Assembly: GCA_024181965.1 (NCBI GenBank)
Contig: BQXS01012524.1
Coordinates: 1 to 41,827 of the forward strand
Direction of reading: 5' to 3'
Length of the DNA: 41,827 nt
DNA from: Aduncisulcus paluster
Lineage: Eukaryota
Positions 1-41,055 of the stretch are shown here, piece after piece (position 1 is the stretch's first letter; each line of letters starts with the position of its first letter). The translations under genes and the position numbers were made by a program. The notes beneath the pieces are model-generated. The model was not told the DNA's origin and made no database searches. It saw nothing but the letters and a program-made list of their open reading frames with translations.

Positions 1-643
1 CATCGACATGGGTATTCTATTGTTATTTTGCTTTGTTTGTTGCTCTTTTTGTTGTTTTCCTGTTGGAGCTCTTGTATTCTGTTGTTTGACATTTGTGTAT
101 TCTCCCCAAAACAATTGATTAAACAATATCACTCGTTTTATTATCCATTGCCATTTATTTGATGTATATTTCTATTTTGAATCGATTTGTACCCTTAAAT
201 GCCCATCCTGTGCAGTCTCTCCAAGATTCTGGATGAAATTTGACAATTTCCTGCTGGAGCAAGAAAACTGAGAAGTGAAATAGAATTAAATATAATCACT
301 TTTATTGTGCTAATAATTATCCGTTTCCCTAACCTCGCCAGAATATTCCATCCAATATACTATTCTATACATCTTCTCCAATCTCTACAAACCACACTTC
401 CTCGGCAACATGAATCCCTGCGGCTCTTTGGCAAATACGATAAGCCTCCAGAATATATCCAGAAAGCTCAGATATAATCATATTCTTTCGAGTGATCCAC
501 ACAAGACGATCGCAAGGTTTGACTCTCCTTTCTTCGTGAACATTCAAACCCACAAGACTCAGTGACGCGTTGATCCACGCCCACTCGCCAACAAGGTGTG
601 ATGGAAGGCAGGCAAGTGGGGCCAGATCGTTGAGTTCTTTGAA
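1..643. repeat. Dispersed repeat segment (3' end of the 1086-aa ORF plus its downstream DNA), shared with 17786-18428 and 39937-40579; runs off the left window edge
   Basis: Near-identical sequence from catcgacatggg to gagttctttgaa at all three loci, with only a few substitutions. Confidence 0.97.
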
Positions 644-3595
644 TGCAGACTTTGTACGAGAATAAACATCGCGGATTAGTGGAATCATTTCTGTGTTAGG
701 TGGAAGAGTGAAATGGAATTGTTCATCTTCAGATGCTTTTTCTTCTTCACCTTCTTCTCCCATTTCCTCATCTTTTTCGGGGATGAAGACCTTTTTATCT
801 GCCTTTTCGATCATCTCTTCTTCTTGTTTCATCAACATTGGGTTCACAATGGTCCGATTTATCAGGAATCTCCAAATGAAAGGATCATGAGATATTTTCG
901 TGAAAGATGATGTTTCATAATTCTCGCCTCTCTCTTCCTTCTTCTTCGGACCATTATTTATCTCGAAACAACGGTGGAAGAGAGAAGCAAATGGGAACGC
1001 CCCTTTAATATATAAAACATCTCTTGACTCTTTTGAAACGGTTGGGGTATCACTTTTGCTGTCAGTTGTTGTCATTTCTTTGTCAGCCCTCATTTTCACT
1101 CTAATCGCCTTGAGCTCTTCACGGAACTCAGTCCAAATGACATTCATGCGATTGAAAATAGATGATAAATTTGACTGAAGAAATGATATTCCATCTGAAG
1201 GACCCTCTGTAACCCCGTGGAAAGGGAAACTAGATCGATTGACATAAAAAAGCAGTGAAGCAGGGGAAAAAGAGCATATTTTCGGTCTGTACGTTCTGAT
1301 ACTAGGTGTATCATGTGGTTTGAGACATTGTTCAACATGAAAATATCCATATGCGATACAATGATCAGCATTATTAGGAGATTGATCAAAAGATGACGGA
1401 GAAGCGTATGGCATCTTAGCAATTAGAGAAGAATTATAAGAATAGAGATGGAATCGTACCTGTTCCCACAAAAGTCTCGACATTTGAGTCAAACAACGGG
1501 AAAATAGGGCTTTCCATTCAGCTTCAAGATCATCCGTCCACCAAATACAATTCGATTGAGTGAGGGAGTAATACTCACTCAAAATAAATCGAAGAATTAT
1601 GAGTTGTCGAATTCGGAAGAACAAAGCAACAAAATCTCCAGAAACAATGATATACTGTTTGTCCAAATCTTTGAACAATGTAATAAAATAAGAATAAGAT
1701 TCATTAAATGACTCAATTCCCTTGATAAATTTCTTTGAAGGTGCATCAGATTGAAGAAAATGATATAATGGGAACAAATGAGAAAGTTTGAATGGTATAT
1801 TTTTAGATTTGGGCAAAGATAGATAAAAAGTTTGATAAAATCCAGGCGAAGACAGAGCATATCTATTTGGAGATACAATAACAGAAGATTTTTGAGGGTT
1901 ATTTGTAAAATACGAACTAAATAAATCAACATTATCTTGTTTTGATGGAATATCACTATCAGACAAAGACATTGACAAAAGAGGATATAAATCATTGAAG
2001 GTAGAAATGGTTTTATGAACAATTTTTGGATCACCAAGACACAAATAATCATCATCTTCTTCCTCCTTTTCTTCCTCCTCCTCTTCTTCTTCTTCTTCCT
2101 CCTCCTCTTCTTCTTCTTCCTCTCCTCCTTTCTCTCCTTCTTCCTCTTCCTTTGTGACGAGTAATTGTTGTATGTCTTTTCCCCTCGTCATCTGTGTGAT
2201 CTCAGCCAACACAGCAGCTTGTGAGAGAATGTCTGCACCGTCCATTGCACTGGAGATATCATCATCAAGAGGAACAATAAGATTGTAATCAATTAAAAGC
2301 TTCATATACTCTCGGGATATCGATTCGTTAGATCCGAGAACAGACATATCACGCCGAAATGAAGTCACAAAAGAGGAAACATCTTTGCTACGTGAGTCAA
2401 GGATAAAATTCTCATTTTCATCGATAAAATATCGGCTCGAAACGTTGATACCGGCAATATCTTTCGTCTCTACCTGCATCTTTAACACCCAAGCACACTG
2501 GTCCAAGTACTCTTCCCTATTGAACTCGGAATCGCTAGAGGGCACGTTTTGAAGGAACTGGAGGTCCCAAGTACCCGGAGAATATGGTCGAAGTGAAAGA
2601 CAATGCGCAACGATAGCACCAGTAACACGGACAGGTGTCACGATGGAAGAAGAGGGAGAAGAAGAGGAGGAGGAAGAAGACTTGGTGGTGGGGGGGTCTG
2701 ACTTAACAGGGTAGATTTGGGAAGCATGTTTTTCTGTTGCCGATTCAATGTGTTGAGATCTCGATAGTTTTTCTTCTTCTTCTTCTTTTTCTTCTTCTTC
2801 TTTTTCTTCTTCTTCGTCTTCATCCTTCGGAACCACTCTGAGGAGAAGTATTCGAGAGCCTCGAGATATGACATCACGCCAATATGGCATTGACGATGTT
2901 GTTGGAGCAATAATGGCGGAAGCTGTGACATAAGGAGTTCTTGAGAGAGAAAGAGGGGAGATGGGAGAGATAATCGAGGAGTCGGGGAAGGTCATGGGTG
3001 CATCATGGAGATGGGGTGGGCGGAATGCGGTTTTGAGAAGAATTCCTCTGGTGGAAATTAGTTTGGGGGCATTTTTAAAGGAAAATACAACCTCAGATCC
3101 ACAAACGGATAGGTGGGGTGATACACTTCGTATAGTTGATGAAATAAAAGAAATTAACGATTCTCTCATTTTTTCGTGTAGAATTAGGGATTTCTGATGG
3201 AAATTATTCCCAATTTTAGAAATAAAGGGAGTATGATTGGTATCTGACATGGGAAATATATTGGCAACATCACTATGAATACAATAATGTAAATTTTTGT
3301 TTAATGTTTGCGATATTTTATATATTAAATTTGCATTTTCGGCAATAAATGAAAATAATACTGAACGATCATCACTAAATACTGTTGTTCCACTTATAAC
3401 ACTAGCTAGAGCTAAAATATGTTTAGAAGAAAAGTTTTTAAACATTTTTTGCAACGATGGAATTGATTTAAACTCTTCTAATGGCGATAAAGGAATTCTT
3501 TTGGCAGACTCCCCATATGTTGGAATAAATGAGATGAGAATTGTTTTAAATAAATAAAATCGTTTACAAATGTTATTCCAAGATGATAATAACAT
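365..3595 (-). CDS. Hypothetical protein (~1076 aa) with poly-Glu and poly-Ser tracts
   Basis: Long ORF; the track starts at TTG 3625 and the first in-frame ATG is at 3595. No recognised domain. The last 93 codons lie in the repeat segment. Confidence 0.85.
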   Translation of the reverse strand: MLLSSWNNICKRFYLFKTILISFIPTYGESAKRIPLSPLEEFKSIPSLQKMFKNFSSKHILALASVISGTTVFSDDRSVLFSFIAENANLIYKISQTLNKNLHYCIHSDVANIFPMSDTNHTPFISKIGNNFHQKSLILHEKMRESLISFISSTIRSVSPHLSVCGSEVVFSFKNAPKLISTRGILLKTAFRPPHLHDAPMTFPDSSIISPISPLSLSRTPYVTASAIIAPTTSSMPYWRDVISRGSRILLLRVVPKDEDEEEEKEEEEKEEEEEKLSRSQHIESATEKHASQIYPVKSDPPTTKSSSSSSSSPSSSIVTPVRVTGAIVAHCLSLRPYSPGTWDLQFLQNVPSSDSEFNREEYLDQCAWVLKMQVETKDIAGINVSSRYFIDENENFILDSRSKDVSSFVTSFRRDMSVLGSNESISREYMKLLIDYNLIVPLDDDISSAMDGADILSQAAVLAEITQMTRGKDIQQLLVTKEEEEGEKGGEEEEEEEEEEEEEEEEEEKEEEDDDYLCLGDPKIVHKTISTFNDLYPLLSMSLSDSDIPSKQDNVDLFSSYFTNNPQKSSVIVSPNRYALSSPGFYQTFYLSLPKSKNIPFKLSHLFPLYHFLQSDAPSKKFIKGIESFNESYSYFITLFKDLDKQYIIVSGDFVALFFRIRQLIILRFILSEYYSLTQSNCIWWTDDLEAEWKALFSRCLTQMSRLLWEQVRFHLYSYNSSLIAKMPYASPSSFDQSPNNADHCIAYGYFHVEQCLKPHDTPSIRTYRPKICSFSPASLLFYVNRSSFPFHGVTEGPSDGISFLQSNLSSIFNRMNVIWTEFREELKAIRVKMRADKEMTTTDSKSDTPTVSKESRDVLYIKGAFPFASLFHRCFEINNGPKKKEERGENYETSSFTKISHDPFIWRFLINRTIVNPMLMKQEEEMIEKADKKVFIPEKDEEMGEEGEEEKASEDEQFHFTLPPNTEMIPLIRDVYSRTKSAFKELNDLAPLACLPSHLVGEWAWINASLSLVGLNVHEERRVKPCDRLVWITRKNMIISELSGYILEAYRICQRAAGIHVAEEVWFVEIGEDV

Positions 3596-3669
3596 TGAAA
3601 AATTTCCCAAAGGAATCAAAAACAATAATCATAGTCTGTGGGTGAAACAAATAATTCATATTCAGCATA
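3596..3669. promoter_or_regulatory. Very short head-to-head intergenic region, probable bidirectional promoter
   Basis: Only 74 bp separate the divergent ATGs at 3595 (-) and 3670 (+). Confidence 0.45.
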
Positions 3670-5298: not shown

Positions 5299-5682
5299 TT
5301 ATTTCTTCTTCCATATTTCTTTTTTAGCACGTTTTACCATCTTTTTAATCTTTTTATCCATTGATCTGGAACATATTTTGGCTTTCTTGTCAGCCATTTT
5401 GATCTTCAACGCTCTTCCTTGAAACCTCTTTCCATTCAAAGATTTCAATGCTAACATGGCATCTTTAATATTTGAAACATAAATGAATCCGTACTCCCTC
5501 GATTTCCTGGTTACTTTGTCATTGATAACGATTGCATCTAAAAATGACGGGAGATGAGAACTAGCAAAAAGAGCAAGAGTTTCTGATGTTACATTAGGAT
5601 GTAAATTTCCGATCCACAGTTTAATTCGAACAGAACCTAGAGATGGATTTGTTTCATGAGAAGGCTTTGGAGAATGAGACAT
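5299..5682 (-). CDS. Single-RRM RNA-binding protein, RBM42-like
   Basis: RNP2 LWIGNL and RNP1 REYGFIYV are present. PSFLDAIVINDKVTRKSREYGF resembles RBM42 PSFLKAKVIRDKRTGKTKGYGF, and the C-terminal tail is basic. The RRM call is secure; orthology is tentative. Confidence 0.8.
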   Translation of the reverse strand: MSHSPKPSHETNPSLGSVRIKLWIGNLHPNVTSETLALFASSHLPSFLDAIVINDKVTRKSREYGFIYVSNIKDAMLALKSLNGKRFQGRALKIKMADKKAKICSRSMDKKIKKMVKRAKKEIWKKK

Positions 5683-9100: not shown

Positions 9101-12100
9101 GCAGAATTCCCGATGAAAAGGAGGAACTTGAAAGAATAGCCAAACGAGAATATTCTATAGATGATGATGGTGATCGTATCAAACAAGCTAATGACCAAAC
9201 CCCCCATCATCATCACGCATCGGCCTCCTCATATTCTCCCATTTCAGTGTCAATGACAATGGTGCCATCATCGTCCCATCACATTTCACAGGCCAACCAA
9301 GGAAGAACAATCATTCAGGGAACGGGAATGACCACTGTTGGAGCAAGTTCATCATCAACAAATAGAACATCTTCTACATCTTCTTCTCATGGTGCTTCTA
9401 AAAATAGATATCTCGATCTAAAACGGGAGGAAGAAGATATGACATTTGAATCGGAATCTGATTTGAGTGAATCCACAATCCAAGTTATTCCATCTGGAGA
9501 GAAACAGTCTTTTTATGTGCGTGATAGAGGAAACGATATGATTGGAATTTCTCAAATGGAATCAATAATGGATATTAATAGAACCACAGATGTTTCTCAC
9601 CCATCAGTGACTGAGAAAGTGCAACTAACTCGTTTGAAGAAAGAACAGAAACGTATCAAGAAAGAANNNNNNNNNNNNNNNNNNNNACTGTTGGAGTAAG
9701 TTCATCATCAACAAATAGAACATCTTCTACATCTTCTTCTCATGGTGCTTCTAAAAATAGATATCTCGATCTAAAACGGGAGGAAGAAGATATGACATTT
9801 GAATCGGAATCTGATTTGAGTGAATCCACAATCCAAGTTATTCCATCTGGAGAGAAACAGTCTTTTTATGTGCGTGATAGAGGAAACGATATGATTGGAA
9901 TTTCTCAAATGGAATCAATAATGGATATTAATAGAACCACAGATGTTTCTCACCCATCAGTGACTGAGAAAGTGCAACTAACTCGTTTGAAGAAAGAACA
10001 GAAACGTATCAAGAAAGAAATAGAGAAAAGGAAAGGAAAAGGTTTAACCCTATCATCAGCCCGTAAAACCCATACTTTCTCTTCAATTGCTTCTCAAACT
10101 TCTAGTTCTTCTTCCTCTCCCTCATCTTCTCAGCAAAAACAACCACCTGATAGCCATAGTCAAGATTACCAGTCCATTCCTCATATTAGATTTATGAGAG
10201 ATAATAATAAGAAACCATCTCCTATCAGCGATATATCTCAAGCCCTCAAGCCTCCTATTATGGATGGTATGATCAGCGATATTCCCACATCAACATCAAT
10301 AGCGCACCATCCAACAATACATTCGAATACAACCTCTCCTTCCTCTTCTTCTCCTTCCTCTTCTTCTCCAAAGATTGTTCTCCCACAATACTCTATATCT
10401 GTGTGTGAGGCATGTATTTTTCTGTGTATATATGGAAAAGGAGACAAGGAACGAGAAAGTGGACGTGAGATGCTTCTTGAGGTTTGGGAGAGGGAAAGAT
10501 CGAGTATCGATGTTGTATGTAAAAATGTGCAGAGAAGAAGTTGGTGGAGATGGATTCAGAAGGAAATAGAGAAGGAAACCTCGATATCTCAATCAAGACA
10601 GCAAAATAACCTTTGTTATGCCAGGTCGTCGGAACCTCATAAACAACGAGAATCAACGAGAAGGGTTGGCCTTAAAAGTTCAGTATCTTCTCATTCCAGT
10701 TATAAAAATAGAAACGGAGAGTTATTATCCCACGCAAAGACGACAACTGTGGGAATTGTCAGTTCACCTGAAGGAATTGATCATTCCTGTGAAAAAACTG
10801 AAGAATCACAAATGAACGAAGTTTCTCAAAAAGGAGGTCTTAGAATTCCTCAAGATGAACCACCCCATGTTCATGAAGAATCAACAAGTTCATCTCAACT
10901 CCCCAATGAGAGTAGAAGGAAACTAAAAGATCAGAGAGATCACCATCCTCCATACTTAGGCCACAATAATAATAGCAATAATAGTAATACTGGTAATCAA
11001 AATATCTTTCCATTTTGGCAAGTTTCAATGCAAGATGAAGTTTCTCAATGGTTATCCAAGAACCTGGGTGAATACAAGAAAGAATGCTCACAATTGGAAA
11101 GTTTGAGAAACACGATTGAGGAAGAAGCTGAAGAAGAAGAGAGGGAACGACAAACATTTGACGATGTTCTGCGAAAAGAAGAGACGACAACGGAAAGCTT
11201 GACAACACAAGGTGCTTCACAGGAGGCAGATAAATTGGGATATCTTTCTCCTCAAGCTCTGATTGGTGAAGATGACCTCGGTGCTTCAAGTCTGGCAATG
11301 GACCCTCAAGAAGGAGTTTCACTCAGTCCTCGGCTCTCTCTGATGTTTGCTGACATTCATACCCAAGATATGACAGGATCTTTACCCTTCGATGGACCAA
11401 ATAATGGAGAGAAGGAGGAAACGACAGATTTAGATATTGAGAAAGAAGAATCTGAGACTGTATCAGGTCCTGGTATTTCCAGTAGTACCAAGCAAACCAG
11501 GAGAAACACTATATATTCCAAACGAAGGGCCCTTCAATCCAATATTATTCAAGATGGTGATCAATTGGACAAATATGTCCAGGATATTGTTTCAAAATGT
11601 GTTCCTCCTCTTCCTTCTTCTTCTTCTCCTCCTCCTCTTCTCCCCCCTTTCTCTCTTCTCTCCTCTTCTTCTCTATCTTCTGCGTTAGCGTCTGGAATAT
11701 TTGGTCTTTGCATATGGTGTATTATAAGGGAGATAGAGAGAGATTCATATGTCAGGAGAATTAACCAATTATGGACAGAATGGCATCACTCACACAAGAA
11801 ACAAGTCATATCCACCATAATTAAACAACATTTGCAGAATAATGGGAATAATCCTCAGTTTCTCAAATATTTTATAAATAGATTGACCAGTTTCAATCAT
11901 GGAAAGCAATCCAATGACCATTTAGATGATTATACTTTATTCAGAGAGAAGCCAAGTCAAGATAATCCCCATCAACATGGTGAAGAAGACTCTGCTTCAT
12001 ACCGTTCACCTCTCAAGCTCTCCCATTTAAGCACGAAACCATCTGGAACAACCCAACAAACAACATCCTCTGCTTGCTCTCCTTCTTGTTCCTATATTCC

Positions 12101-15100
12101 TCCTCTTCCCTCCCCTTCCTCTTCTGCGTTAGCGTCTGGAATATTTGGTCTTTGCATATGGTGTATTATAAGGGAGATAGAGAGAGATTCATATGTCAGG
12201 AGAATTAACCAATTATGGACAGAATGGCATCACTCACACAAGAAACAAGTCATATCCACCATAATTAAACAACATTTGCAGAATAATGGGAATAATCCTC
12301 AGTTTCTCAAATATTTTAGGGAGATAGAGAGAGATTCATATGTCAGGAGAATTAACCAATTATGGACAGAATGGCATCACTCACACAAGAAACAAGTCAT
12401 ATCCACCATAATTAAACAACATTTGCAGAATAATGGGAATAATCCTCAGTTTCTCAAATATTTTATAAATAGATTGACCAGTTTCAATCATGGAAAGCAA
12501 TCCAATGACCATTTAGATGATTATACTTTATTCAGAGAGAAGCCAAGTCAAGATAATCCCCATCAACATGGTGAAGAAGACTCTGCTTCATACCGTTCAC
12601 CTCTCAAGCTCTCCCATTTAAGCACGAAACCATCTGGAACAACCCAACAATGGACAGAATGGCATCACTCACACAAGAAACAAGTCATATCCATTAATGG
12701 GAATAATCCTCAGTTTCTCAAATATTTTATAAATAGATTGACCAGTTTCAATCATGGAAAGCAATCCAATGACCATTTAGATGATTATACTTTATTCAGA
12801 GAGAAGCCAAGTCAAGATAATCCCCATCAACATGGTGAAGAAGACTCTGCTTCATACCGTTCACCTCTCAAGCTCTCCCATTTAAGCACGAAACCATCTG
12901 GAACAACCCAACAAACAACATCCTCTGCTTGCTCTCCTTCTTGTTCCTATATTCCTCCTCTTCCCTCCCCTTCCTTGGATGATGTCAGTAGAGTAGTCTC
13001 GATAATGTTCAGAGATGCCTGTAAAACTATGAAAATGAGTGATAGCGACCTTTCTCTGCTTGAAATACAGCATTCTGAAATCTCAACTGTGTCAAAAGAT
13101 CTCAAGCAGGTCCATCCACCAGCAATATCTCAGATTTTAGCTATTTTATTCGAACATTTACTCGTTATACGGGAATCAATTGAAGAACAATGTCATGGAA
13201 ATGAATCACTTACAAACGAAGGAATAGAAAGAGATCATCAACAAGTATCCGCTTCTACTGATGACATCATGTCGCACTGCCAATCTAAAAATAGATCAAG
13301 CCCGATGCAATCCTCATCTCTAAAAATAGAAAAGGGTTGTGACTCTTCTAAATCCAGTCTTTCTTCCTCTTCTTCTTCTTCTATTTTGAAATCTCTGGAG
13401 TCCCGTCCGATTGTTAATATTCCAGATTCCGTCTGTTCGCTTGCTTGGTGTTCTTTTTGTGTAATTCGAAGTCTTCAGGAAGAAAAAAACAATGAAGACG
13501 TGCTTCGTGCTGCTGAACTGGAAATCCGCAGGAAAGAAGAAGAGAAACTCGCCAAGGAGCATCGAAAACTTCAGAGAGACCGGAGGAGAAGGGAGAAAAC
13601 CATCAGTGGGATTGAGTCAAGTGATTCTGAGACGAAAAAAGAGGAAGAATGCATTCCAGAAGGTATGCTTCTCTCTCCATCTGAGCATGAATCAGATAGC
13701 CAGTCCATTGGATGCATCATTTCAAGTCCTAATCCCTCACCTTCTTCTCTCCACACAGAAAACACACCATCTCTGGCTGCGAATAAGTATATTATTCCAT
13801 CAATTATCCCACCAATATTCAATAGGGGGTTCTTACTCTCTCTTCCAGCATTCTTCCAAATTCCTCATACATCAATATGTCAGGTTTTGCTCTCCATCTG
13901 TATGAATGTGCTTGAAAATGAATTTAAAAGACGTGAAAAAGAATTGAAACAAATTAAAATTTCACTAAAAAATGAATTGAAGAAACAGCGAAGAAAAGAT
14001 AAGGAAATGGCACGAAAACTCCGTCGAAAATCAGGGATAGAAACAATATCTGCAACAACAGACCTACACGGAGATATGAGTACTACCCGACTTACTAGCA
14101 GTTCCCAAAATAGAACAACTGAGAAAGATACTTCTGATTCCAAGCGGCAACAACAACACTCCCCACTCCATCGTTCTCCGACTTCCGAAGAAGCAGGCAT
14201 TGGTGTCGATAGTCGATATATTCAATAGGGGGTTCTTACTCTCTCTTCCAGCATTCTTCCAAATTCCTCATACATCAATATGTCAGGTTTTGCTCTCCAT
14301 CTGTATGAATGTGCTTGAAAATGAATTTAAAAGACGTGAAAAAGAATTGAAACAAATTAAAATTTCACTAAAAAATGAATTGAAGAAACAGCGAAGAAAA
14401 GATAAGGAAATGGCACGAAAACTCCGTCGAAAATCAGGGATAGAAACAATATCTGCAACAACAGACCTACACGGAGATATGAGTACTACCCGACTTACTA
14501 GCAGTTCCCAAAATAGAACAACTGAGAAAGATACTTCTGATTCCAAGCGGCAACAACAACACTCCCCACTCCATCGTTCTCCGACTTCCGAAGAAGCAGG
14601 CATTGGTGTCGATAGTCGATATTCTTCCCCCATTCCATCAATATCCGAGCAGTCAGAAGACAGTGTCAATGCAAATACCCAAGGGATCAGAGGTGGGAAG
14701 CGGCCATTAAATTCGTCAAAAAGAAACCCCCGTGATGAGGAAGACAAAGAGGAGGAAGATGATGGAGAGACGGAAGGAATTCTAATTGATCCGTCTCTTT
14801 TGTTTATTGAACGCAAAAGAAAGGCTGAAATACGACAGTGTGAACGATTATCTGATGTGTTGTTGCATGTTTTACTCCCGATTCTTCATGTGCTGACAGG
14901 AATGTATTGTGATACATCACTTAACGATCAAAATAAGAAGAATCCTCAACCCATCAAAACTTCACTAATTAGTGACCAGCATCTAATGCAAAGACAAGGG
15001 TTTGTTGGAGCCAAAGATGGAAGTCTGTTTCACCAACAACAGAAAGTATCTCCGGTTGTCCCAACCAGATTTCCTCTTCATCTCTCCCTTCTGAAACATG

Positions 15101-15828: not shown

Positions 15829-16205
15829 GTTTTACTCAATTTTTGATGTTGATACATCACACCTTCAAACTGGATCACTTCAAGGATTGTATGGAATTCA
15901 AACTTACTTTTTGGACGATTTCAATGCTATAAAATACACACGAATTGAACACATTCCACGCTCCTTACCTTCGTTCCTGTTTGACCATCAGTCGAGACAA
16001 TCTGTACTACAGATTCTGTAGGGAAGATGTTGAAGAAAAGATGGAATCATGAATTCTTCACGAATTCAAGATCAGAAAAGACAATTGTGCACTTCTTTGA
16101 TCGGATCAATGTTAATAATTATTAAAAATCAAGAAATTTATCCGACACAGTGTCTGGGAGATAGTCAAAGGTATTACGTCCTTTGAAGACAATAACATCA
16201 TTGAA

Positions 16206-17309
16206 TTATTTCCATGGAAGTAGAGATAATCGTTCAGCTGCAATGGTTTCCTCGGGCATAGTAAATACAAGGGAGTGGATGCAGAAATATCGATTATTCT
16301 TCTCTTTCCACGTTCCTTTCCCTTCAATCTCACACAATACAATATTATCCAAATCAATAGGAAGGAAGTGCCATTCAAACCAATGTTTAGGTTTTGTGAA
16401 TTCATACTTCTTGGATGTCTTCTTACCATCACAATCAGTGAAAGTGAAGAGAAGAGAGGGTGAACTGATATCCCTAATCACACAGATATAGGCACCTCCG
16501 ATGGGACTAGGTGATGGGAAAGGGATGGAAAGATGGGATAAGCGAAGACTATCTTCCCCTTTTAACATTTTTTGTGCATCTGAACTCTGATCATACTTCT
16601 CAAATTCCTTACTATACGAATCATTCTTGCACTTAACCATTGAGAATGAAGGATCAACAAGCTTTGGATCATCTCGTGGAATGGGAATAGAATCTCTGCC
16701 TTTAGATTTTCTATCTCCTTCCTTAACAAACTCTGGTTTCACAACTGGAGTTTCAGACCATAGTTTCTCTCTGGCTTCATGAGATTTGATTTCTTCAGGG
16801 TTTTCTTCTCTACTAATGAAAACAAGGGAGATGATTCCAAAATACTCTTTCCTTCTTCCTTTCCCTGTAATCTCACACAAAACAACATCAGGGAGATCAA
16901 CAGGAAGGAAATACCAATGAAAACCATGAAATTCAGGAAATTCGTATTTCTTGGATCTTTTCTCACCCTTTGAAGATGTGAGAGTGAAGATAAGGTGTGA
17001 TGGAGCGAAATTACCCCGATCCCACAGACAGATGAAAGCCCCTTCCATTGAGGAAGATGAAGAGAAAGGAATGGAGATATGGGTAAATTGTCCTAAATTA
17101 AACTCTCCTTTCATCATCTTTTGTGCATAAGAACTCTGATCGTACTTTTTATCACCTTCTTCCAAGGTTCCATCGATTGCCCCGATTGTTGGAAACTCTG
17201 CACTCTTAATGTTGGGGGAATCTCGAGGAATTGGACAACACCACCGATTTCCTTCATGAACAAACTCAGGTTGCATAGTTTGAATAACGGCATCTGTGGA
17301 TGAACTCAT
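16206..17309 (-). CDS. 367-aa protein made of two tandem homologous ~175-aa domains; member of a multigene family
   Basis: Both halves carry PEFV.EG, PIPRD.P, YDQSS.AQKM.KGE, H.SIPF, GA.IC, KKYEF, W.FLP.DL..VLCEI.GKG and SLVF. Paralogue at 38150-39241. No signal peptide or TM segment is evident. Confidence 0.92.
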   Translation of the reverse strand: MSSSTDAVIQTMQPEFVHEGNRWCCPIPRDSPNIKSAEFPTIGAIDGTLEEGDKKYDQSSYAQKMMKGEFNLGQFTHISIPFSSSSSMEGAFICLWDRGNFAPSHLIFTLTSSKGEKRSKKYEFPEFHGFHWYFLPVDLPDVVLCEITGKGRRKEYFGIISLVFISREENPEEIKSHEAREKLWSETPVVKPEFVKEGDRKSKGRDSIPIPRDDPKLVDPSFSMVKCKNDSYSKEFEKYDQSSDAQKMLKGEDSLRLSHLSIPFPSPSPIGGAYICVIRDISSPSLLFTFTDCDGKKTSKKYEFTKPKHWFEWHFLPIDLDNIVLCEIEGKGTWKEKNNRYFCIHSLVFTMPEETIAAERLSLLPWK

Positions 17310-17439
17310 TTGAATAGCGATAGAATTTCTTATCTAAAAAATGTGAACAAACGGAAAAATTGCGAATTTCAAGGAGAACAGTCCGAGAAACAAAGACAAA
17401 ACGAGCAAAACGAACAAAACGAACAAGAAACGACCACAC

Positions 17440-18441
17440 AGCACAATATAGTTAGTATAATTGAATATCAACGATTAATATATATCTTAATATGTATTTA
17501 ACAACAGATATGACATACAGTAAATATATAATGTGTTATTAACGAAAGAAAAGATAACGACCAAACCCACAACCCCCGATTGGCAAACTCAGGAAGTGAT
17601 ATCGTATAATATATGCATAAAAATATATGAACATTTTCTTTGGAACATATATTACATGCCATCCTTGTGAGTCCACTCCTGACAATGACATTCAAAATCC
17701 GTTTCATTATCTCCCTATTTGCCAACACATCGAATTACAAAGTTCCCATTTACAATGATAAAATCATCTTGTAATCCGTGAATGCCATCGACATGGGTAT
17801 TCTATTGTTATTTTGCTTTGTTTGTTGCTTTGTTTGTTGTTTTCCTGTTGGAGCTCTTGTATTCTGTTGTTTGACATTTGTGTATTCTCCCCAAAACAAT
17901 TGATTAAACAATATCACTCGTTTTATTAACCATTGCCATTTATTTGATGTATATTTCTATTTTGAATCGATTTGTACCCTTAAATGCCCATCCTGTGCAG
18001 TCTCTCCAAGATTCTGGATGAAATTTGACAATTTCCTGCTGGAGCAAGAAAGCTGAGAAGTGAAATAGAATTAAATATAATCACTTTTATTGTGCTAATA
18101 ATTATCCGTTTCCCTAACCTCGCCAGAATATTCCATCCAATATACTATTCTATACATCTTCTCCAATCTCTACAAACCACACTTCCTCGGCAACATGAAT
18201 CCCTGCGGCTCTTTGGCAAATACGATAAGCCTCCAGAATATATCCAGAAAGCTCAGATATAATCATATTCTTTCGAGTGATCCACACAAGACGATCGCAA
18301 GGTTTGACTCTCCTTTCTTCGTGAACATTCAAACCCACAAGACTCAGTGACGCGTTGATCCATGCCCACTCGCCAACAAGGTGTGATGGAAGGCAGGCAA
18401 GTGGGGCCAGATCGTCGAGTTCTTTGAAACTAGATCGTGCT
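17440..18441. repeat. 1002-bp segment bounded by 13-bp inverted repeats (agcacaatatagt at 17440-17452, actagatcgtgct at 18429-18441; 11/13 match)
   Basis: The reverse complement of actagatcgtgct is agcacgatctagt. The match is perfect in copy B. Confidence 0.7.
18150..18428 (-). pseudogene. 5'-truncated duplicate of the last 93 codons of the 365-3595 gene
   Basis: FKELDDLAPLACLPSH...EIGEDV*. The ORF-track start at 18449 is a GTG in unrelated junction sequence. Confidence 0.8.
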
Positions 18442-18570
18442 AATACCACCCATCAACTCAATGTATGAGTGGATCAACAAATGCCTTCGCTCATAAAAAT
18501 AAATGAAAGTGAAGTAAAGAGAGGATTTAGAGCTTGAACTAAGATGTTAGTTGCCAGAAATACTGTCATA

Positions 18571-21036
18571 TTATTCAAGCTCAAATAATTTTCCAACGGC
18601 CAGTGCTAGAGGTTTTGAGATTTTCTTATATTTCGTAATATAATGTTCCTTGTCTTTCTTACAGTGTCTACTTTTCCGAACTTGGAATGCCTCTGGTGGA
18701 GGCGAAGGAGAATTCAATACAACCATTGGAGATATAATCTTCCCATTATGCGAATCCTTTGAAAGTTCCCATCGACCACAAACATGTCGATCCATACCAA
18801 TGATTCCTTCATTGGAGGCATCTTTGACACAGTGAAGAGAAAATCTTCGAACAAATATGCCAGGATTTTTGACACTTATGTATATTTCTCTCTTATGAAA
18901 GGAATTGAATGTGTGAAAATGAATCAATGGTAAAAGAAGAGGATCTTTGGTTTCGAGCCATTTGAGGTAGCTTTTACATTGTTTTTTAGGCGTTTTAAGT
19001 TTTTTGACCTTGCATATATTCCAAATCGTGGCCGACATAGCACGTTCAAAATTCTCAATATGATCACGAAAAATGCGAAGACAATCTTCAGATTCCCTTG
19101 ATTTTCCGATGTCTTTATCATGGGTTAATGAAACAGAGAATCTTGATTTGAATATTTTAATACTGTTTTCGAGGCATTTATCTAAGAGTGCAACATAGGA
19201 TTTGGAGGAAGAAAGTGAGGTTTTCCATTCGGTTTGGAGCTTTTTTGGGAATATATATGGCGGTTGAGACATAAATGTTGATGGAACTGGGTCAGAATAA
19301 TCAACAATATATTTTTTATCATATTCTTTATCCAGAAAAGTAGTAAAATCAAGATATGCTCTAATCCATGTCTCTACCATAAATACCTCAATCTTTTTCA
19401 GTCCCAAGTACTCAACAAGAAGCTTCAAGATATCTTTAATAAACGGCAAAATCTCAGACTGAATCAATGCTCCAAAATCTCGATCAGACATTCCAGTATG
19501 TAAAATGGGGTTTAATCTATCAATATAATACCCCTTTTCCTTGTGCATTTCATCACTAAAAGATTTCTTTTCTTCTTTTCCTGAGAGATTCAGATGTTTT
19601 GCCACCATTCCAGTGTCATCATTTTTGGGTTCATCATGGAAAATATTGCTTAAGTAAGAAACTGGAGGAGCTTGACATAGAGAGTGGATTAGGGCAGGCC
19701 GAAGATCAAAAGACTCATGCATATCAATGTATTCCAAAATACTGGTTAGATTATGCGCTCCAATCTTTCTATTAGCACTGATCCATCTGAATCTTGATGT
19801 CTGTAACCAATCTCTAATGTAATTGCAATAATACATCCCGCTATTTCCAGCAGAAATATCAAGGATGGACGATCTCATTATGCGGTAATAAAATTCGGGA
19901 GAATACTTCATTGATCCATGATGAGGAGTTGAAGAAATAATGCAATCTGTCGCACCATACTTTCTAAATTCTTCACGAGAAAAGAACGTATTTGCTTTAA
20001 TTGAAGCATCTTTATCAAAACAAACGATATCACCAGAGAAAAATGCCTTAAATGGCTGACTATTGGGAGTCAACGCGGGTTTGATTTTTCTAAACGAAGA
20101 CTCAAGTTCAGGACAAGAAAATATCGATGAAATATCAGAAATTGACAAGGAATGGGTTGGATGAGAAAAAAGAATAGAAATGGAATTGGAATTCACACTT
20201 TCGCTATCATCATATTTGATGCTGGGAGAAGGAACAAAAAGAGTAATGTCAAAGGGGCAGAAAATACACGAGGAATCAGAATGGGAGGGAGAGTGAAAAC
20301 GCTGTAAAATACAAGTCCCATATGTTTTCTCATGTGGATCATCTGTTGAACCTTTTTGGAGAAGGAGCGAAAACCCACGGTCACGACATTGATCGATATA
20401 TTCATTATGCTTAGAAATATTGGATCTATCCCACACTTCATCGGTTTTTAATTCCTTTTCGTCTAAATTCGGCAAGTTTAGTTTTCGAGAATAAGCAGAA
20501 GCCAGCCCTCCTCTTCCCCTAATCTCTTCAAGCACGCTATTAATAAATAAGTTATATTTAGCATGTTTTATATGATTATGTATATTATAATACTCAAGAT
20601 ATTGTATTGTTAAGAGATATCTCCCGACATAATGCTTCAAATCATATGGAGAATCAATAGGACCAGAATCTATTATAGCAGCATATGGACCGCACTTTAT
20701 AATGTGTAAGTTATAAAACCAAGGACATCCACATAGAACATGAGCAACTTCAATGGATATCTTGGGATTTATCAACATCACTGTAATGCAAAAAAGAATA
20801 CACGACGATAATATTCAATAATATCTTAATCTTGAATAATGATCAAAATAATTCCTTATTCCAATCAATTAATTTCCAAATAGTTGTTTTAGTAAGAAAT
20901 TGATAGTTGAGTCAATTTGATCGATTTTCAAAATACAGTTTTACTTACCATGGTTAAATAACTTATGAAGAAATTTAATTATTGTATTATATGACGAATT
21001 AGTCTTCATTCTGGAAGAATTGTGTGCCTTCATCAT
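18571..21036 (-). CDS. Hypothetical protein (~765 aa); probable exon 1 at 21036-20949, intron 20948-20781, exon 2 at 20780-18571
   Basis: The 736-aa ORF begins at a TTTTTTGCATTACAG acceptor. An upstream CATG|GTAAGT donor joins in phase 1 to MMKAHNSSR...LFNH. The ORF is secure and exon 1 is tentative; an in-frame ATG also follows the acceptor. Confidence 0.7.
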
Positions 21037-21346: not shown

Positions 21347-23584
21347 ATGAAACCTGTATTAATTCTTCATGGATACCTTTTGGAAGGATCTGGAAGTAAT
21401 TTATGGACCAGAAGTGTAGCTAAAGCGTTTTTGAGATCTGGAAGAGATGTCCATCTATTTTGTCAGGAACCAGAACCTGAAAAATATAAATTTATTAACG
21501 AAGCTTACAAATATACCACTGATATCAAAAATCAGTTCAATTTATCAGGATTTATTCTCGGAGCTGCCACTGGTGTTGCAGAGTGTTTTACTCCAAATCA
21601 CCATAAAAGCGGATATCCATTATTTTCAAAAATTCCAGATCTTTTAAAATTTAAAGATCATTCATCTCTTGTATCTCAATCTGAAATATTAACTTCTGAA
21701 CCCTTCCACTGGTCTCATTTCACTCCAACTTCAGAGAAAATATATACTCGAGCTACTCCAGCTTATCCATCGGTTCCAAAATGTATTATTCACAAGCCAA
21801 ATTTATTATCCGACACATTGCCCGTATTTGTCACAGATAAGTATAAAGAATATATTGCAGTCCCAATTCCCTCGTGTTTGCCACCTGTTTTGGGGAAATA
21901 TATTGCCATTAATGCAGCCTGTTTGTTGAAAGTTGTTGAAGAGGTACAACCTAGTATTATTGTTGCAAATCACACGGTTTTGATGCCTACTGTTGCTCAA
22001 TTGGTCATTCACCACCTTAAATCCAAGAAATCTGCATCAATTCCACGTTTAATAATAGTTCCACATGGCTCTGCGCTTGAATATGTTGTGAGAAGGGATG
22101 AACGTGCCTTTGTTCTTGCCTATCTCTCCCTTCTCTCCTCCTCAACCATTTGCTACATTGCCGATGAGATAAAACTTCGTTTAGAATCATATTTTACAGA
22201 ATTGTGCTGTTCTTCACACTACCACACTCATCTAAATACATCGAATCCATCCTCCATCCCTCGTCCCGTGACGTGGCTTGATGAAAAGCTCCTTAAACTT
22301 CCACTTGGAGTCGATACTACATTATTTACTTCAGGTTATACCGATATTGAGAAAAGATCTGCATTAACTAACTTGATTAAGCTTGTATCTCAACCTGAAA
22401 TTGGAATCGCAACAGGAAGAGAGGATGAGGAGGAAGGGATAGCATTGGACCATTGTTCAAAATCTAGAGCCTTACAACGATGCAATGTCATACTGCAGAA
22501 ATATTTGGATTGTCAAACCAAGAAATCGGAGGTCAATCCCGTATCATCATCTCTTTATACTCATTATTCATATACGGAACAGTCAAAGGGCGGTGATGAC
22601 GAGGTTTTGGATGCAGAAAAGACTGATCTTCTGGCATCTTTGCAAGAACAAATCAATCTAATTGCGACTCGAAGTGGAACTCACCATGACATGGATTTTG
22701 CAAAGAAAATGGATTTTTTGAGCAAAGAAAAAATCGGTAAAACCCAACATTTACCTCGAATAATTGCCTTTGTGGGCCGTTTAATCGCTGGGAAAGGTCT
22801 TCAAAACTTATTGTTAGCCATGCCTCTGCTTTTGGAATGTCACCATGATATTTGTCTCGTCGTAGTTGGCTCTGGTCCCCTACGTCCATTGCTTGAATTG
22901 TTCTGGTATTCTCTCTGTGAGGGAGCCAAAGATCGTCTTTTGTTGCTTTGTTCTCTCGTTGAGTTCTTGTCAGACCCGGCTTCAATTAAGTTAAAATCGA
23001 GCATTGGTGATTCAAAATTGCACAAAATATCTTCGTTCCATAAAAACGACATGTTTGAACGATCTCGACTTTTTATTGAATCTGCCCCTGAAACTTACTG
23101 GAAATCCATCAAAGAGATTGGGTTTTCGGCGTATCCGCGTGTTATCTTCGCAGGATATCTCCTCCATCATCAACTAGCTCCACTCTTAACCGCATCTTCA
23201 TGTCTCTGCTGTCCATCCGTTGTGAAGGAAGCTGGGCCCCTTGTGTATCTCGAGGGCTTGGCAAGCTGTTGTATCTGCGTTGGCACCGATATGGGTGGAG
23301 TTCGGAGTATGAAAGCATTCATTCTCAACGAAGCGAGGGAAATTATGGAGAAGCAAATGGAAGTTGATGTAAAAGATGAGGAGGAAAGGAACAGAATAAT
23401 TACAAAGGAGTGCCATCTCTTGGGTCAATGTATGTCCTTTGAACCATCCTGCAATGCTGAATTTATCCATCGGCTGACTTATTGTTTGTTGCGTGGTTTG
23501 GAATTGGATAAAAAACACTTATCTTTAATTGAAGAAATTGTTCGAGAAGAATTTGATTGGGAGAAAATTGTGTCTAAATTATAA
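21347..23584 (+). CDS. Glycosyltransferase family 4 (GT-B fold), bacterial-like
   Basis: N-terminal ILHGYLLEGSGSNLWTRSVA...VHLFCQE, then PHGSALEY, PLGVDTTLF, FVGRLIAGKG, VVGSGP, PSVVKEAGPLVYLEGLAS (E-x7-E motif), GTDMGG and a C-terminal FDWEKI. Confidence 0.92.
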   Translation: MKPVLILHGYLLEGSGSNLWTRSVAKAFLRSGRDVHLFCQEPEPEKYKFINEAYKYTTDIKNQFNLSGFILGAATGVAECFTPNHHKSGYPLFSKIPDLLKFKDHSSLVSQSEILTSEPFHWSHFTPTSEKIYTRATPAYPSVPKCIIHKPNLLSDTLPVFVTDKYKEYIAVPIPSCLPPVLGKYIAINAACLLKVVEEVQPSIIVANHTVLMPTVAQLVIHHLKSKKSASIPRLIIVPHGSALEYVVRRDERAFVLAYLSLLSSSTICYIADEIKLRLESYFTELCCSSHYHTHLNTSNPSSIPRPVTWLDEKLLKLPLGVDTTLFTSGYTDIEKRSALTNLIKLVSQPEIGIATGREDEEEGIALDHCSKSRALQRCNVILQKYLDCQTKKSEVNPVSSSLYTHYSYTEQSKGGDDEVLDAEKTDLLASLQEQINLIATRSGTHHDMDFAKKMDFLSKEKIGKTQHLPRIIAFVGRLIAGKGLQNLLLAMPLLLECHHDICLVVVGSGPLRPLLELFWYSLCEGAKDRLLLLCSLVEFLSDPASIKLKSSIGDSKLHKISSFHKNDMFERSRLFIESAPETYWKSIKEIGFSAYPRVIFAGYLLHHQLAPLLTASSCLCCPSVVKEAGPLVYLEGLASCCICVGTDMGGVRSMKAFILNEAREIMEKQMEVDVKDEEERNRIITKECHLLGQCMSFEPSCNAEFIHRLTYCLLRGLELDKKHLSLIEEIVREEFDWEKIVSKL

Positions 23585-24008
23585 GTATACATTTGCACAT
23601 TTTACTTGGTAGATTACCCATTGATTGTAGGACGAGTAGGACAGTATTTCTTCATTTTCCCCATTATTCTTCGTTTTGATTATACTTCTCAAATGAGGAT
23701 GATTTCTTATCGTCAAGCAATATTTCCGCGCCACATCCTGTGCGTTCAATCTGATCCCATACCGCCTCAAAGATCTTTCCTCATTATATGGCATCTGGGC
23801 AAGTAAATGTTGAGGAGTATTGGAGAAGAAGAGTGTCACCTTTCATGGATCAATGTGATGGAAAAGGAATGGAGAGGGGATAAGAACTCAAGCCAAAAAG
23901 CCAAGCCAAGCGATGCTTATTTATTGTGACATATCTGAAGAATGATTGTGTATGGATTACTAAAATTATAAACTTGTTCACAATCTCCCTTGAAACCTCA
24001 AAGTATTA

Positions 24009-38149: not shown

Positions 38150-39241
38150 TTATTTCCACGGACGTAGAGATAATCGTTCAGCTGCAACGGTTTCCTCGGG
38201 CATAGTAAATACAAGGGAGTATATCTCGAACCTTCGACTATTCTTCTCTTTCCACGTTCCTTTCCCTTCAATCTCACACAATACAACGTTAGCCAAATCA
38301 ATAGGAAGGAAGTGCCATTCAAACCAATGTTTAGGTTTTGTGAATTCATACTTCTTGGATGTCTTCTTACCATCACAATCAGTGAAAGTGAAGAGAAGAG
38401 AGGGAGAACTAAAATCCTTAATCACACAGATATAGGCACCTCCGATGGGACTAGGTGATGGGAAAGGGATGGAAAGATGGGATAACCATACATCACATTC
38501 CCCTTTTAACATTGCTTGTGCTTTTGAACTCTGATCATAATACTCAGTTTCCTTACGAAACGCATCATCCTTGCACTTAACCATTGAGAATGAAGGATCA
38601 ACAAGCTTTGGATCATCACGTGCAATGGGAATAGATTCTTTATCTCCTTCCTTAACAAACTCTGGTTTCACGACTGGAGTTTCAGACCATAGTTTCTCTC
38701 TGGCTTCACGAGATTTGATTTCTTCAGGGGTTTCTTCTCTACTAATGAAAACAAGGGAGATGATTCCAAAATACTCTTTCCTTCTTCCTTTCCCTGTAAT
38801 CTCACACAAAACAACATCAGGGAGATCAACAGGAAGGAAATACCAATGAAAACCATGAAATTCAGGAAATTCGTATTTCTTGGATGTTTTCTCACCCTTT
38901 AAAGATGTGAGAGTGAAGATAAGATGTGATGGAGGTGATTCTAAATAAACATCATATAGACAGATGAAAGCCCCTTTCATTGGGGAAGATGAAGAGAAAG
39001 GAATGGAGATATGGGTAAATTGTCCTAAATTAAACTCTCCTTTCATCATCTTTTGTGCATAAGAACTCTGATCGTACGCATATTCACCTTCTTCCAAGGT
39101 TCCATTAATTGCCGTGATAGTTGGAAGCTCTACATTCTTAACATTGGGGGAATCTCGGGGAATTGGACAACAAGTCCAACCTCCTCCATGAACATACTCA
39201 GGTTGCATGGTTTGAATAATAGCATCTGTGGATGAACTCAT
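38150..39241 (-). CDS. 363-aa two-domain family protein, paralogue of 16206-17309
   Basis: Same repeated motifs; about 52 substitutions and 2 indels versus copy A by hand alignment. Confidence 0.92.
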   Translation of the reverse strand: MSSSTDAIIQTMQPEYVHGGGWTCCPIPRDSPNVKNVELPTITAINGTLEEGEYAYDQSSYAQKMMKGEFNLGQFTHISIPFSSSSPMKGAFICLYDVYLESPPSHLIFTLTSLKGEKTSKKYEFPEFHGFHWYFLPVDLPDVVLCEITGKGRRKEYFGIISLVFISREETPEEIKSREAREKLWSETPVVKPEFVKEGDKESIPIARDDPKLVDPSFSMVKCKDDAFRKETEYYDQSSKAQAMLKGECDVWLSHLSIPFPSPSPIGGAYICVIKDFSSPSLLFTFTDCDGKKTSKKYEFTKPKHWFEWHFLPIDLANVVLCEIEGKGTWKEKNSRRFEIYSLVFTMPEETVAAERLSLRPWK

Positions 39242-39400
39242 TTGAATAGCGATAGAATATCTTATCTAAAAAAATAAAAACAAGCAGAATAATAATAGTA
39301 TTTGTGAACAAACAGAATAATTGCGAATTTCAAGGAGAACAGTCCGAGAAACAAAGACAAAAACAAGCACGAACAAGAAACGACCACACAGCACGATCTA

Positions 39401-39744
39401 GTCAGTGAATTTGGATGACAATGATTAATATATATCTTAATATGTATTTAACAACAGATATGACATATAGTAAATATATAATGTGTTATTAACGAAAGAA
39501 AAGATAACGACCAAACCCACAACCCCCGATTGGCAAACTCAGGTGGATGATGTCAGTAGAGTAGTCTCGATAATGTTCAGANNNNNNNNNNNNNNNNNNN
39601 NGTCAGTGAATTTGGATGACAATGATTAATATATATCTTAATATGTATTTAACAACAGATATGACATATAGTAAATATATAATGTGTTATTAACGAAAGA
39701 AAAGATAACGACCAAACCCACAACCCCCGATTGGCAAACTCAGG
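39401..39744 (+). repeat. Gap-associated duplication (offset 201) with a 38-nt chimeric insert before the N gap 39582-39601
   Basis: 39401-39543 recurs from 39602, and 39544-39581 equals 12976-13013. Confidence 0.88.
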
Positions 39745-40300
39745 AAGTAATATCGTATAATATATGCATAAAAATATATGAACATTTTCTTTGGAACATA
39801 TATTAAATGCCATCCTTGTGAGTCCACTCCTGACAATGACATTCAAAATCCGTTTCATTATCTCCCTATTTGCCAACACATCGAATTACAAAGTTCCCCT
39901 TTACAATGATAAAATCATCTTGTAATCCGTGAATGCCATCGACATGGGTATTCTATTGTTATTTTGCTTTGTTTGTTGCTTTGTTTGTTGTTTTCCTGTT
40001 GGAGCTCTTGTATTCTGTTGTTTGACATTTGTGTATTCTCCCCAAAACAATTGATTAAACAATATCACTCGTTTTATTATCCATTGCCATTTATTTGATG
40101 TATATTTCTATTTTGAATCGATTTGTACCCTTAAATGCCCATCCTGTGCAGTCTCTACAAGATGCTGGATGAAATTTGACAATTTCCTGCTGGAGCAAGA
40201 AAACTGAGAAGTGAAATAGAATTAAATATAATCACTTTTATTGTGCTAATAATTATCCGTTTCCCTAACCTCGCCAGAATATTCCATCCAATATACTATT

Positions 40301-40579
40301 CTATACATCTTCTCCAATCTCTACAAACCACACTTCCTCGGCAACATGAATCCCTGCGGCTCTTTGGCAAATACGATAAGCCTCCAGAATATATCCAGAA
40401 AGCTCAGATATAATCATATTCTTTCGAGTGATCCACACAAGACGATCACAAGGTTTGACTCTCCTTTCTTCGTGAATATTCAAACCCACAAGACTCAGTG
40501 ACGCGTTGATCCACGCCCACTCGCCAACAAGGTGTGATGGAAGGCAGGCAAGTGGGGCCAGATCGTCGAGTTCTTTGAA
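40301..40579 (-). pseudogene. Second 5'-truncated duplicate of the last 93 codons of the 365-3595 gene
   Basis: Same breakpoint as copy A; N>D and V>I changes relative to the parent. Confidence 0.8.
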
Positions 40580-41055
40580 ACTAGATCGTGCTAATACCAC
40601 CCATCAACTCGGCGTATCCAGTTGAAACCAATCTGAATGCAAGAGGATCAAATTGGCATGGAACCACGAAGTTAAACAATCATTTTTACTGTTCTTTGAT
40701 CCAAAATAACATAATAGCTACAATTCGTGTCTGTTCCTTCACTTTCAATTAAGAAAAACATACAACGCAATGTTCCATGGAACTTCCATGCGTAATAAGT
40801 TGAATATTCAATATTTAAAATATTATAATAATATGATTATTGCAATGACACAATATCGAACAATTATGGATATTAAGTAGGATCTGTTGTCAAGCAAACA
40901 TCCAATAATAATACTATTATAATAATAATAATAATAAAAAAAAATAGCTTCAAACTATAACAATAATTTCTGATGAAGAAGAATTAAATTGAATATAATA
41001 TGCTATAATTAGAAGATTTGAGAATAACATAATCTAACCATAATACGATATGGAA

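What the first reader, a model, noticed from the sequence alone, without database searches (positions are those of the whole stretch)
16143..18459. Non-coding flank is far more conserved than the gene it travels with
Seen: about 11 differences in ~985 nt (~99%) between 17473-18459 and 39624-40610, against ~84% amino-acid identity in the adjacent CDS. The CDS also alternates between identical blocks (e.g. ~16806-16955, KKYEFPEFHGF...ISREE) and divergent patches. This is the reverse of normal paralogue decay. Inference: a recent common upstream segment is combined with gene bodies reshuffled by segmental gene conversion, resembling expression-site plus cassette exchange in antigenic variation.
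Basis: partly seen in the sequence, partly recalled or inferred. Interest (0 to 1): 0.8.

Follow-up and report, generated by a model that had tools for sequence, protein, structure and literature searches.

The report
Young flank, reshuffled hypervariable gene body
In a free-living protist, several copies of a gene carry the same recently duplicated upstream DNA, but their coding parts have already been patched with pieces from hundreds of sister genes, which shows how this family of variable binding proteins diversifies and is not a parasite-style antigen switch.

Summary
In detail: 11 differences in 987 nt of flank, against 91.6% nucleotide and 84-86% amino-acid identity in the CDS. The flank is not an expression site, and not wholly non-coding. 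It is a young duplication, present in 3-4 copies by read depth. It carries the last 93 codons and the downstream spacer of a single-copy gene at window 365-3625, which marks the donor locus. The genes belong to a family of several hundred cytosolic tandem DOC/CBM32-fold proteins of Aduncisulcus paluster, with 37 hypervariable codons and frequent kinase fusions. The same contrast holds family-wide, upstream and downstream: 23 pairs with upstream identity of 98% or more average 88.6% in the CDS. Mosaic tracts, linkage lost within about 30-60 nt and variants shared with the family pool point to ectopic gene conversion, very roughly 60-85 times faster per site than point mutation. Segmental conversion is supported; expression-site antigenic variation is not. 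Gene-flank linkage still needs long reads. The scan found this family before on other DNA; new here are the internal clock and the donor locus.

The parts
16206..17309 (-). Copy A: 367-aa gene with two tandem ~170-aa beta-sandwich domains (DOC/APC10- and CBM32-like fold) and 37 hypervariable codons
15940..16205 (-). Downstream flank of A, shared over about 270 nt with another member (L040, contig C11201) but not with C or D; B shares only 41 nt
17310..17535 (-). Proximal upstream region common to much of the family (AT-rich box 17472-17535 and the motif just before the ATG). A and D share one type, B and C another.
17536..17831 (-). Further upstream DNA shared at 72-92% with a subset of other family loci
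17832..18149 (-). Copy of the spacer downstream of gene X; 4 copies up to 18013, 3 beyond
18150..18428 (-). Captured last 93 codons (with stop) of single-copy gene X; no ATG start in this frame
18429..18459 (.). 31-nt junction found only in A and B; its first 13 nt are an inverted copy of the B/C-type proximal upstream sequence
   Evidence: depth of 2 copies
365..3625 (-). Gene X, 1086 aa, no Pfam hit, single intact copy; donor of the captured tail
1..643 (-). Donor copy of the flank; bases 1-163 are identical to the start of contig C12477, which carries family copy C
38150..39241 (-). Copy B: 363-aa family gene; near-identical to C over the 5' half, diverged in the 3' half
39242..39543 (-). 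Proximal upstream region of B (B/C type), holding the 13-mer at 39390-39402
39544..39744 (.). Assembly scar: 38 nt identical to 12976-13013, 20 N, then a 143-nt exact repeat of 39401-39543
39745..40610 (-). Distal flank of B, with the gene X tail (40301-40579) and the 31-nt junction (40580-40610)

Best explanation
The flank is young and the gene body is a patchwork of older pieces. A family gene (C) sits just downstream of single-copy gene X. DNA-level copying moved the C upstream region, with up to 1.1 kb including X's tail, to new sites (A, B, then D), leaving a templated junction. The distal flank has only 3-4 possible recombination partners, so it records the short time since copying (about 1%). 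The CDS has hundreds of partners at about 85% identity with a near-constant framework, so ectopic gene conversion keeps importing patches, most visibly at about 37 hypervariable codons. Part of the contrast may also come from one-sided copying of flank plus 5' half onto older gene ends, since the four copies have different downstream flanks. The result is a repertoire of cytosolic binding modules, often fused to kinases, probably for non-self or ligand recognition. Shown: copy numbers, donor, mosaicism, shared variants, fold, lack of a membrane anchor. Inferred: conversion as the molecular route, the order of events, selection on the variable sites, the recognition function.
For: Donor: X is intact once, with two 96-aa tail hits; C12477 overlaps window 1-163 at 100%. 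Depth in X1: single-copy about 1230-1305; 18083-18296 3726; 17779-17928 4657; junction 2293; SNP 18297 split 1092 vs 2373. Flank is tree-like (16 of 16 informative sites upstream of the ATG group A+D) while the CDS has 29, 9 and 6 sites for the three groupings; runs test p=0.002. Longest identical tracts exceed a variability-weighted null in 4 of 6 pairs (p 0.0002-0.007). Synonymous r2 falls from 0.126 (15 nt or less) to 0.02-0.04 beyond 30 nt, p=0.0006. Domain-1 and domain-2 trees share 6 of 95 splits against 12-21 for interleaved halves. 88 of 115 non-hypervariable variants among A-D occur in 3 or more of 97 outside members (null 26%); synonymous 28 of 34 (null 42%). Family-wide: CDS pS is 0.113-0.118 whether upstream identity is 98+% or 90-94%; pairs with both flanks about 98% have CDS 86-88%; linkage to a flank fades into the CDS from either end. 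The junction 13-mer occurs in 2 of 105 upstream regions (B, C), not in A's.
Against: No laid contig spans CDS and flank, so gene-flank linkage rests on the draft assembly, which has several gap-overlap duplicates in this window. Two of six pairs (B-D, C-D) show no excess tract. Short-range r2 is low even at 15 nt or less and four-gamete rates are flat (0.63-0.83), so recurrent mutation contributes. The shared-variant null is crude. Two pairs (L041/L047, L015/L017) have 99% identical CDS with their flanks. Pairs are not independent, and the 101 members are the closest to A among 1,265 candidates. Flanks may be homogenised among themselves, which would inflate the rate estimate. Overall pN/pS is about 1 for A-B, and pN above pS at the variable sites is circular because the sites were picked by entropy.
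Confidence: 0.75

Rival explanations
1. Assembly chimeras: the flank copies are real, but the assembler joined them to the wrong gene bodies through identical blocks, creating false mosaics.
For: Draft of 23,235 contigs; a gap with overlap and 38 foreign bases inside B's flank and other duplicated contig ends; identical blocks up to 283 nt; no contig bridges CDS and flank, and both runs read another base at 16550.
Against: Copy-specific alleles sit on both sides of B's gap. An independent k-mer assembly gives the expected 2, 3 and about 4 copies, and a 99-nt A/D-type CDS tract (16977-17075) at 2 copies. Linkage is lost within 30-60 nt, shorter than a read. Misjoins cannot create the hypervariable codons.
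Confidence: 0.1
2. Expression site plus cassette exchange: this upstream segment licenses expression and receives patches from silent copies.
For: Segmental mosaics are present; the flank is near-identical in 4 copies.
Against: The flank holds a neighbour gene's tail; the same contrast appears for other upstream classes and for downstream flanks; most sampled members are intact and carry the proximal motif; no membrane anchor; species described as free-living.
Confidence: 0.05
3. Point mutation with strong diversifying selection, or a targeted mutator, without much recombination.
For: Variation is focused on equivalent positions of both domains (rho 0.56, Fisher p 3e-10); 15 of 18 changed hypervariable codons between A and B differ at 2-3 bases.
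Against: Synonymous framework sites also diverge about 5-7 times more than the flank; variants are shared with the pool; no adenine bias at variable codons and a flat singleton spectrum; distance-dependent linkage and incongruent half-gene trees.
Confidence: 0.07
4. The gene rides in a transposon (Helitron- or Pack-MULE-like) that captures flanking DNA.
For: Dispersed copies with variable lengths of captured flank and a gene fragment.
Against: No fixed end on either side; same-locus upstream-versus-downstream matches were direct, none inverted (21 hits); the 31-nt junction occurs only twice. It would not explain the CDS divergence by itself.
Confidence: 0.03

Closest known systems
Podospora anserina HNWD/NWD non-self recognition family (het-d, het-e); PMC1805685, passages read
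   Same: Intracellular binding modules, highly conserved across loci, exchanged within and between genes, with a few positions per unit varying in i, i+2 pairs around a conserved site.
   Different: Units here are ~170-aa jelly-roll domains, not WD40 repeats; hundreds of loci instead of 10; no NACHT or HET domain among the 42 proteins scanned, kinase instead; exchange works below the unit level; no function shown.
Borrelia vls (vlsE plus silent cassettes); abstracts of PMC11499132 and PMC2632889 seen in listing
   Same: Segmental gene conversion yields mosaics of variable regions in a constant frame.
   Different: No single expression site, no evidence of silent partial cassettes or of one-way transfer, not a surface protein, no host.
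APC10/Doc1 (DOC) and CBM32 / F5-8 type C galactose-binding-like domains
   Same: Predicted fold: yeast APC10 1gqp Z 12.9, rmsd 3.1, 149 residues; tandem CBM32 7jnd Z 13.4, rmsd 11.7, 274 residues.
   Different: 7-13% identity, no Pfam hit, no sequence match in the PDB; tandem, hypervariable and expanded to hundreds of copies.
One-sided invasion / templated-insertion repair junctions (recalled, no paper read)
   Same: One end in homology, the other a non-homologous junction with a short inverted templated insert.
   Different: The repair pathway and the order of events are inferred from one junction.

Membership tests
Expression-site/cassette antigenic variation (vls type) | Segmental gene conversion into the variable gene | tested here: met
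   (mosaics; direction not shown)
Expression-site/cassette antigenic variation (vls type) | One unique expression site distinct from the donors | tested here: not met
   Flank is a 3-4-copy duplication; other flank classes show the same contrast
Expression-site/cassette antigenic variation (vls type) | Donors are silent, partial or promoterless cassettes | tested here: inconclusive
   101 of 108 sampled are intact and 55 of 74 carry the proximal motif, but the sample favours full-length hits and silence was not measured
Expression-site/cassette antigenic variation (vls type) | Surface-exposed product | tested here: not met
   0 of 101 members with a hydrophobic 19-mer at 1.9 or more; A's maximum is 1.2; no hydrophobic N-terminus in 110 relatives (simple hydropathy, no dedicated predictor)
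Expression-site/cassette antigenic variation (vls type) | Only the site-linked copy is expressed | not testable with these tools
   Only contigs of a run guessed to be RNA were available
HNWD-type fungal NLR repertoire | Exchange of conserved binding units between loci | tested here: met
HNWD-type fungal NLR repertoire | NACHT plus WD40 architecture | tested here: not met
   No such Pfam hit in A, B or 42 relatives; the model is a beta-sandwich
HNWD-type fungal NLR repertoire | Positive selection on binding-surface codons | tested here: inconclusive
   pN 0.55 vs pS 0.38 at sites picked by entropy; equivalent sites vary in both domains; no recombination-aware codon model run
HNWD-type fungal NLR repertoire | Non-self recognition function | not testable with these tools
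   Needs experiment
Diversity-generating retroelement | Adenine-specific variation | tested here: not met
   Variability at consensus A (0.33-0.41) is not above G, C or T at codon positions 1-2
Galactose-binding-like fold (DOC/CBM32) | Jelly-roll beta-sandwich matching solved domains | tested here: met
   pLDDT 91; Z 10-13 to APC10, CBM32, IFT25
Galactose-binding-like fold (DOC/CBM32) | Assignment to DOC versus CBM32 and ligand class | tested here: inconclusive
   Top Z values are tied within 1
TIR transposon or Helitron capture | Shared fixed termini, inverted ends or target duplications | tested here: inconclusive
   None seen within 1.5 kb of sampled genes; many contigs end earlier

The most novel reading that the evidence does not exclude
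A free-living protist runs an antibody-like intracellular repertoire: hundreds of DOC-fold sensor genes are actively rebuilt by multi-donor conversion, so fast that new binding surfaces arise within clonal culture, with new genes born as mosaics and wired to kinases.
Probability: 0.2. Interest if true: 0.85.

Novelty: new variant of a known kind. Interest (0 to 1): 0.5.

Why it matters
The flank-versus-gene contrast itself is what ectopic conversion in a large family predicts. Its value is as an internal clock: a functionless-looking captured gene tail dates the copies at about 1% divergence while about half of the CDS has been exchanged. That ties a mechanism and a rough rate to an undescribed hypervariable binding-domain family in a free-living fornicate. 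If the family is a recognition repertoire, diversification of this kind would not be confined to parasites, fungi, plants and animals, and loci A-D are ready markers for testing conversion in clonal lines.

Tried and rejected
No RNA holder listed as such; run X2 is RNA only by guess, so its contigs were not used on expression. A transcriptome source was listed for 0 of the 8 near members found (10 asked) and for 1 of 10 distant ones: no conclusion. Pfam gave nothing for A, B or X. PDB sequence search gave one chance hit. The Atlas gave leads only: best 0.90 unnamed, F5/8 type C and CBM32 at 0.87-0.88. The wide structural search was not run. I tried to exclude misjoins by short overlaps at template switches; the A=D and A=C tracts overlap by 37 nt, long enough for an assembler, so I dropped that argument. 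DGR-like adenine mutagenesis rejected. A CTAG at the junction suggested a Helitron end; rejected, as the 13 nt are explained as an inverted copy. Clustering of variable sites in 3D could not be computed because model coordinates are not returned. The whole genome was not available as a file, so the family was sampled. Paper searches listed no description of this family; only listings were seen, subscription journals are not covered, and no supplements were read.

Full report
Observation. The two genes are 16206-17309 (A, 367 aa) and 38150-39241 (B, 363 aa), both on the minus strand. Like for like, the CDS differs at 91 of 1089 nt with synonymous pS 0.082, against 10 of 835 in the distal flank. 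The high identity starts about 165 nt upstream of the ATG; the proximal part differs at 17 of 152 sites plus two indels.

What the flank is. It is a composite. The proximal 225 nt are common to much of the family, and up to 17831 it is shared at 72-92% with a subset. Beyond that it is host DNA: 17786-18428 matches window 1-643 at 99%, and 18150-18428 encodes the last 93 codons of gene X (365-3625), which is intact only once in G000. Contig C12477 starts with 163 nt identical to window 1-163 and carries a third family gene, C, so the donor layout is X, spacer, C. A fourth gene, D on C12515, has 704 nt of upstream at 99% to A. A and B share 31 further bases found nowhere else, with up to 3 mismatches allowed. 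The 13-mer occurs in 2 of 105 upstream regions, B and C. A carries the junction but not its template, so A's proximal region probably changed after the junction formed (inference).

Is it real? The window has several gap-overlap duplicates, and B's flank has a 20-N gap, a 143-nt exact overlap and 38 foreign bases. The overlap carries B/C-type alleles on both sides. In Logan contigs of run X1, single-copy neighbours have depth 1233-1305; the X-tail region has 3726, the region 17779-17928 has 4657, the junction 2293, and SNP 18297 splits 1092 to 2373. The tool warns that summed depth is no copy number; I use single-contig depths, which fit 3, about 4, 2 and 1:2 copies. The flanks are therefore separate copies, not a collapse. 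A contig of X2 (18364-19300) bridges A's junction, and an A/D-type CDS tract has depth 2686, two copies. No listed piece spans CDS and flank, so that link is untested. Both runs read another base at 16550, in hypervariable codon 254.

The family. A tblastn-type search gave 1,265 first-look candidates, 111 scored. I extracted 108 near-full-length copies and kept 101 without stops, N or partial frame; they are the closest to A, not a random sample. Of 367 positions, 269 are near-invariant and 37 have entropy of 2.3 bits or more, often in i, i+2 spacing and rich in Y, W, D, E, N and R. Variable sites fall at equivalent places in both domains (rho 0.56 over 154 pairs). The model (pLDDT 91) matches galactose-binding-like sandwiches: APC10 Z 12.9, rmsd 3.1 over 149 residues; tandem CBM32 Z 13.4, rmsd 11.7 over 274. 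That the variable loops meet at the binding end is recalled knowledge of the fold, not computed. No member of 101 has a membrane-like segment; 6 of 110 longer relatives have a marginal one. A profile found 160 representatives among 1.84 billion proteins; 10 of 10 looked up are named Aduncisulcus paluster, a species called free-living in the abstract listing of PMC9933649. Of 42 longer hits scanned (of 150 listed), 19 have a kinase match at E 1e-4 or better, 15 above the Pfam cut-off. A and B are stand-alone modules.

The contrast is family-wide. Among 714 pairs with 400 nt or more of alignable upstream, the 23 at 98% or more average 88.6% CDS identity and pS 0.113; pS stays 0.113-0.118 down to 90% upstream identity. 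Downstream flanks behave the same: pairs at 99% have CDS at 86-88%, one at 94%. With both flanks near 98%, L010/L013 and L050/L077 have CDS at 86.3% and 87.6%; L015/L017 is an exception at 99.4% (23 pairs), as is L041/L047. Pairs share members and are not independent.

Mechanism. Among A-D, all 16 informative sites upstream of the ATG group A with D; in the CDS 29, 9 and 6 sites support the three groupings, clustered (p=0.002 on 32 collapsed sites). Longest identical tracts beat a variability-weighted null in 4 of 6 pairs. Across 100 members (one near-duplicate dropped), r2 among 59 synonymous sites falls from 0.126 to background beyond 30 nt (p=0.0006), although four-gamete rates are flat, so recurrent mutation also plays a part. 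Trees of the two domains (98 members, variable codons removed) share 6 of 95 splits, against 14 and 12-21 for interleaved halves. Variants among A-D are mostly old: 88 of 115 non-hypervariable alleles occur in 3 or more of 97 other members against a crude null of 26%, and 28 of 34 synonymous ones against 42%. There is no adenine bias. Linkage to a flank fades into the CDS from the 5' end for upstream matches and from the 3' end for downstream matches. Taking the flank as a clock and 15.2% as pool divergence, about half of the A-B CDS has been replaced, giving exchange about 60 times (A-B) to 85 times (family pairs) the point-mutation rate per site. This is rough and too high if flanks homogenise or were grafted later. 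Grafting is plausible: B equals C over the flank and 5' half only, and A, B, C and D have different downstream flanks, A's shared with L040 and D's with a multi-copy class.

Comparison. It works most like the Podospora HNWD family, where conserved binding units are exchanged between loci and a few surface codons diversify (PMC1805685, passages), but it lacks that architecture and is not a member. It shares segmental conversion with the Borrelia vls system, defined by a single expression site and silent cassettes (abstract listings), but fails on the unique site and the surface product. Searches listed no paper on this family. Earlier scan notes describe the same family on other contigs; I treat them as leads, not support.

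Verdict. Observation confirmed; interpretation partly supported. A young local duplication exposes fast ectopic exchange in a large hypervariable cytosolic family. New variant of a known kind; interest 0.5.

Noticed in passing
window 16550: Both runs read A where the window has T, inside hypervariable codon 254; X1 shows only the other base at single-copy depth, X2 shows both. Assembly error, a close paralogue or variation in culture.
   Followed up: no
window 23885-24247 and L129:7748-8112 (contig C12515): A second captured gene tail: the 3' end of the ORF at 24009-25142 is copied at 96.7% onto the contig that carries copy D, so tail capture from this region happened more than once.
   Followed up: partly
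window 6883-7400, 9334-10019, 11653-12975, 13815-14622: Exact or near-exact duplicated blocks, two at 20-N gaps, that inflate and split ORFs; probably assembly scars.
   Followed up: no
window 39544-39581: 38 nt identical to 12976-13013 hang on the contig end before the gap in B's flank, a likely chimeric tail.
   Followed up: partly
window 17310-17340: A T-rich tract ending in AG lies 24 nt before the ATG in many members, in frame with it; it may be an intron acceptor. No spliced contig was listed.
   Followed up: no
family alignment A3: Singleton substitutions in the framework show no transition excess (0.13-0.23 for all 12 classes).
   Followed up: no
L115, L107: Upstream and downstream flanks share direct repeats (451 nt at 99.6% in L115), suggesting tandem arrays with a common spacer.
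   Followed up: no
P0002, P0020, P0032: The same domain occurs in predicted proteins with PARP, LRR and thioredoxin matches; some may be gene-model fusions.
   Followed up: no
window 26527-32565, 21347-23584, 5299-5682: RecQ-like helicase, group 1 glycosyltransferase and RRM protein; ordinary neighbours.
   Followed up: no
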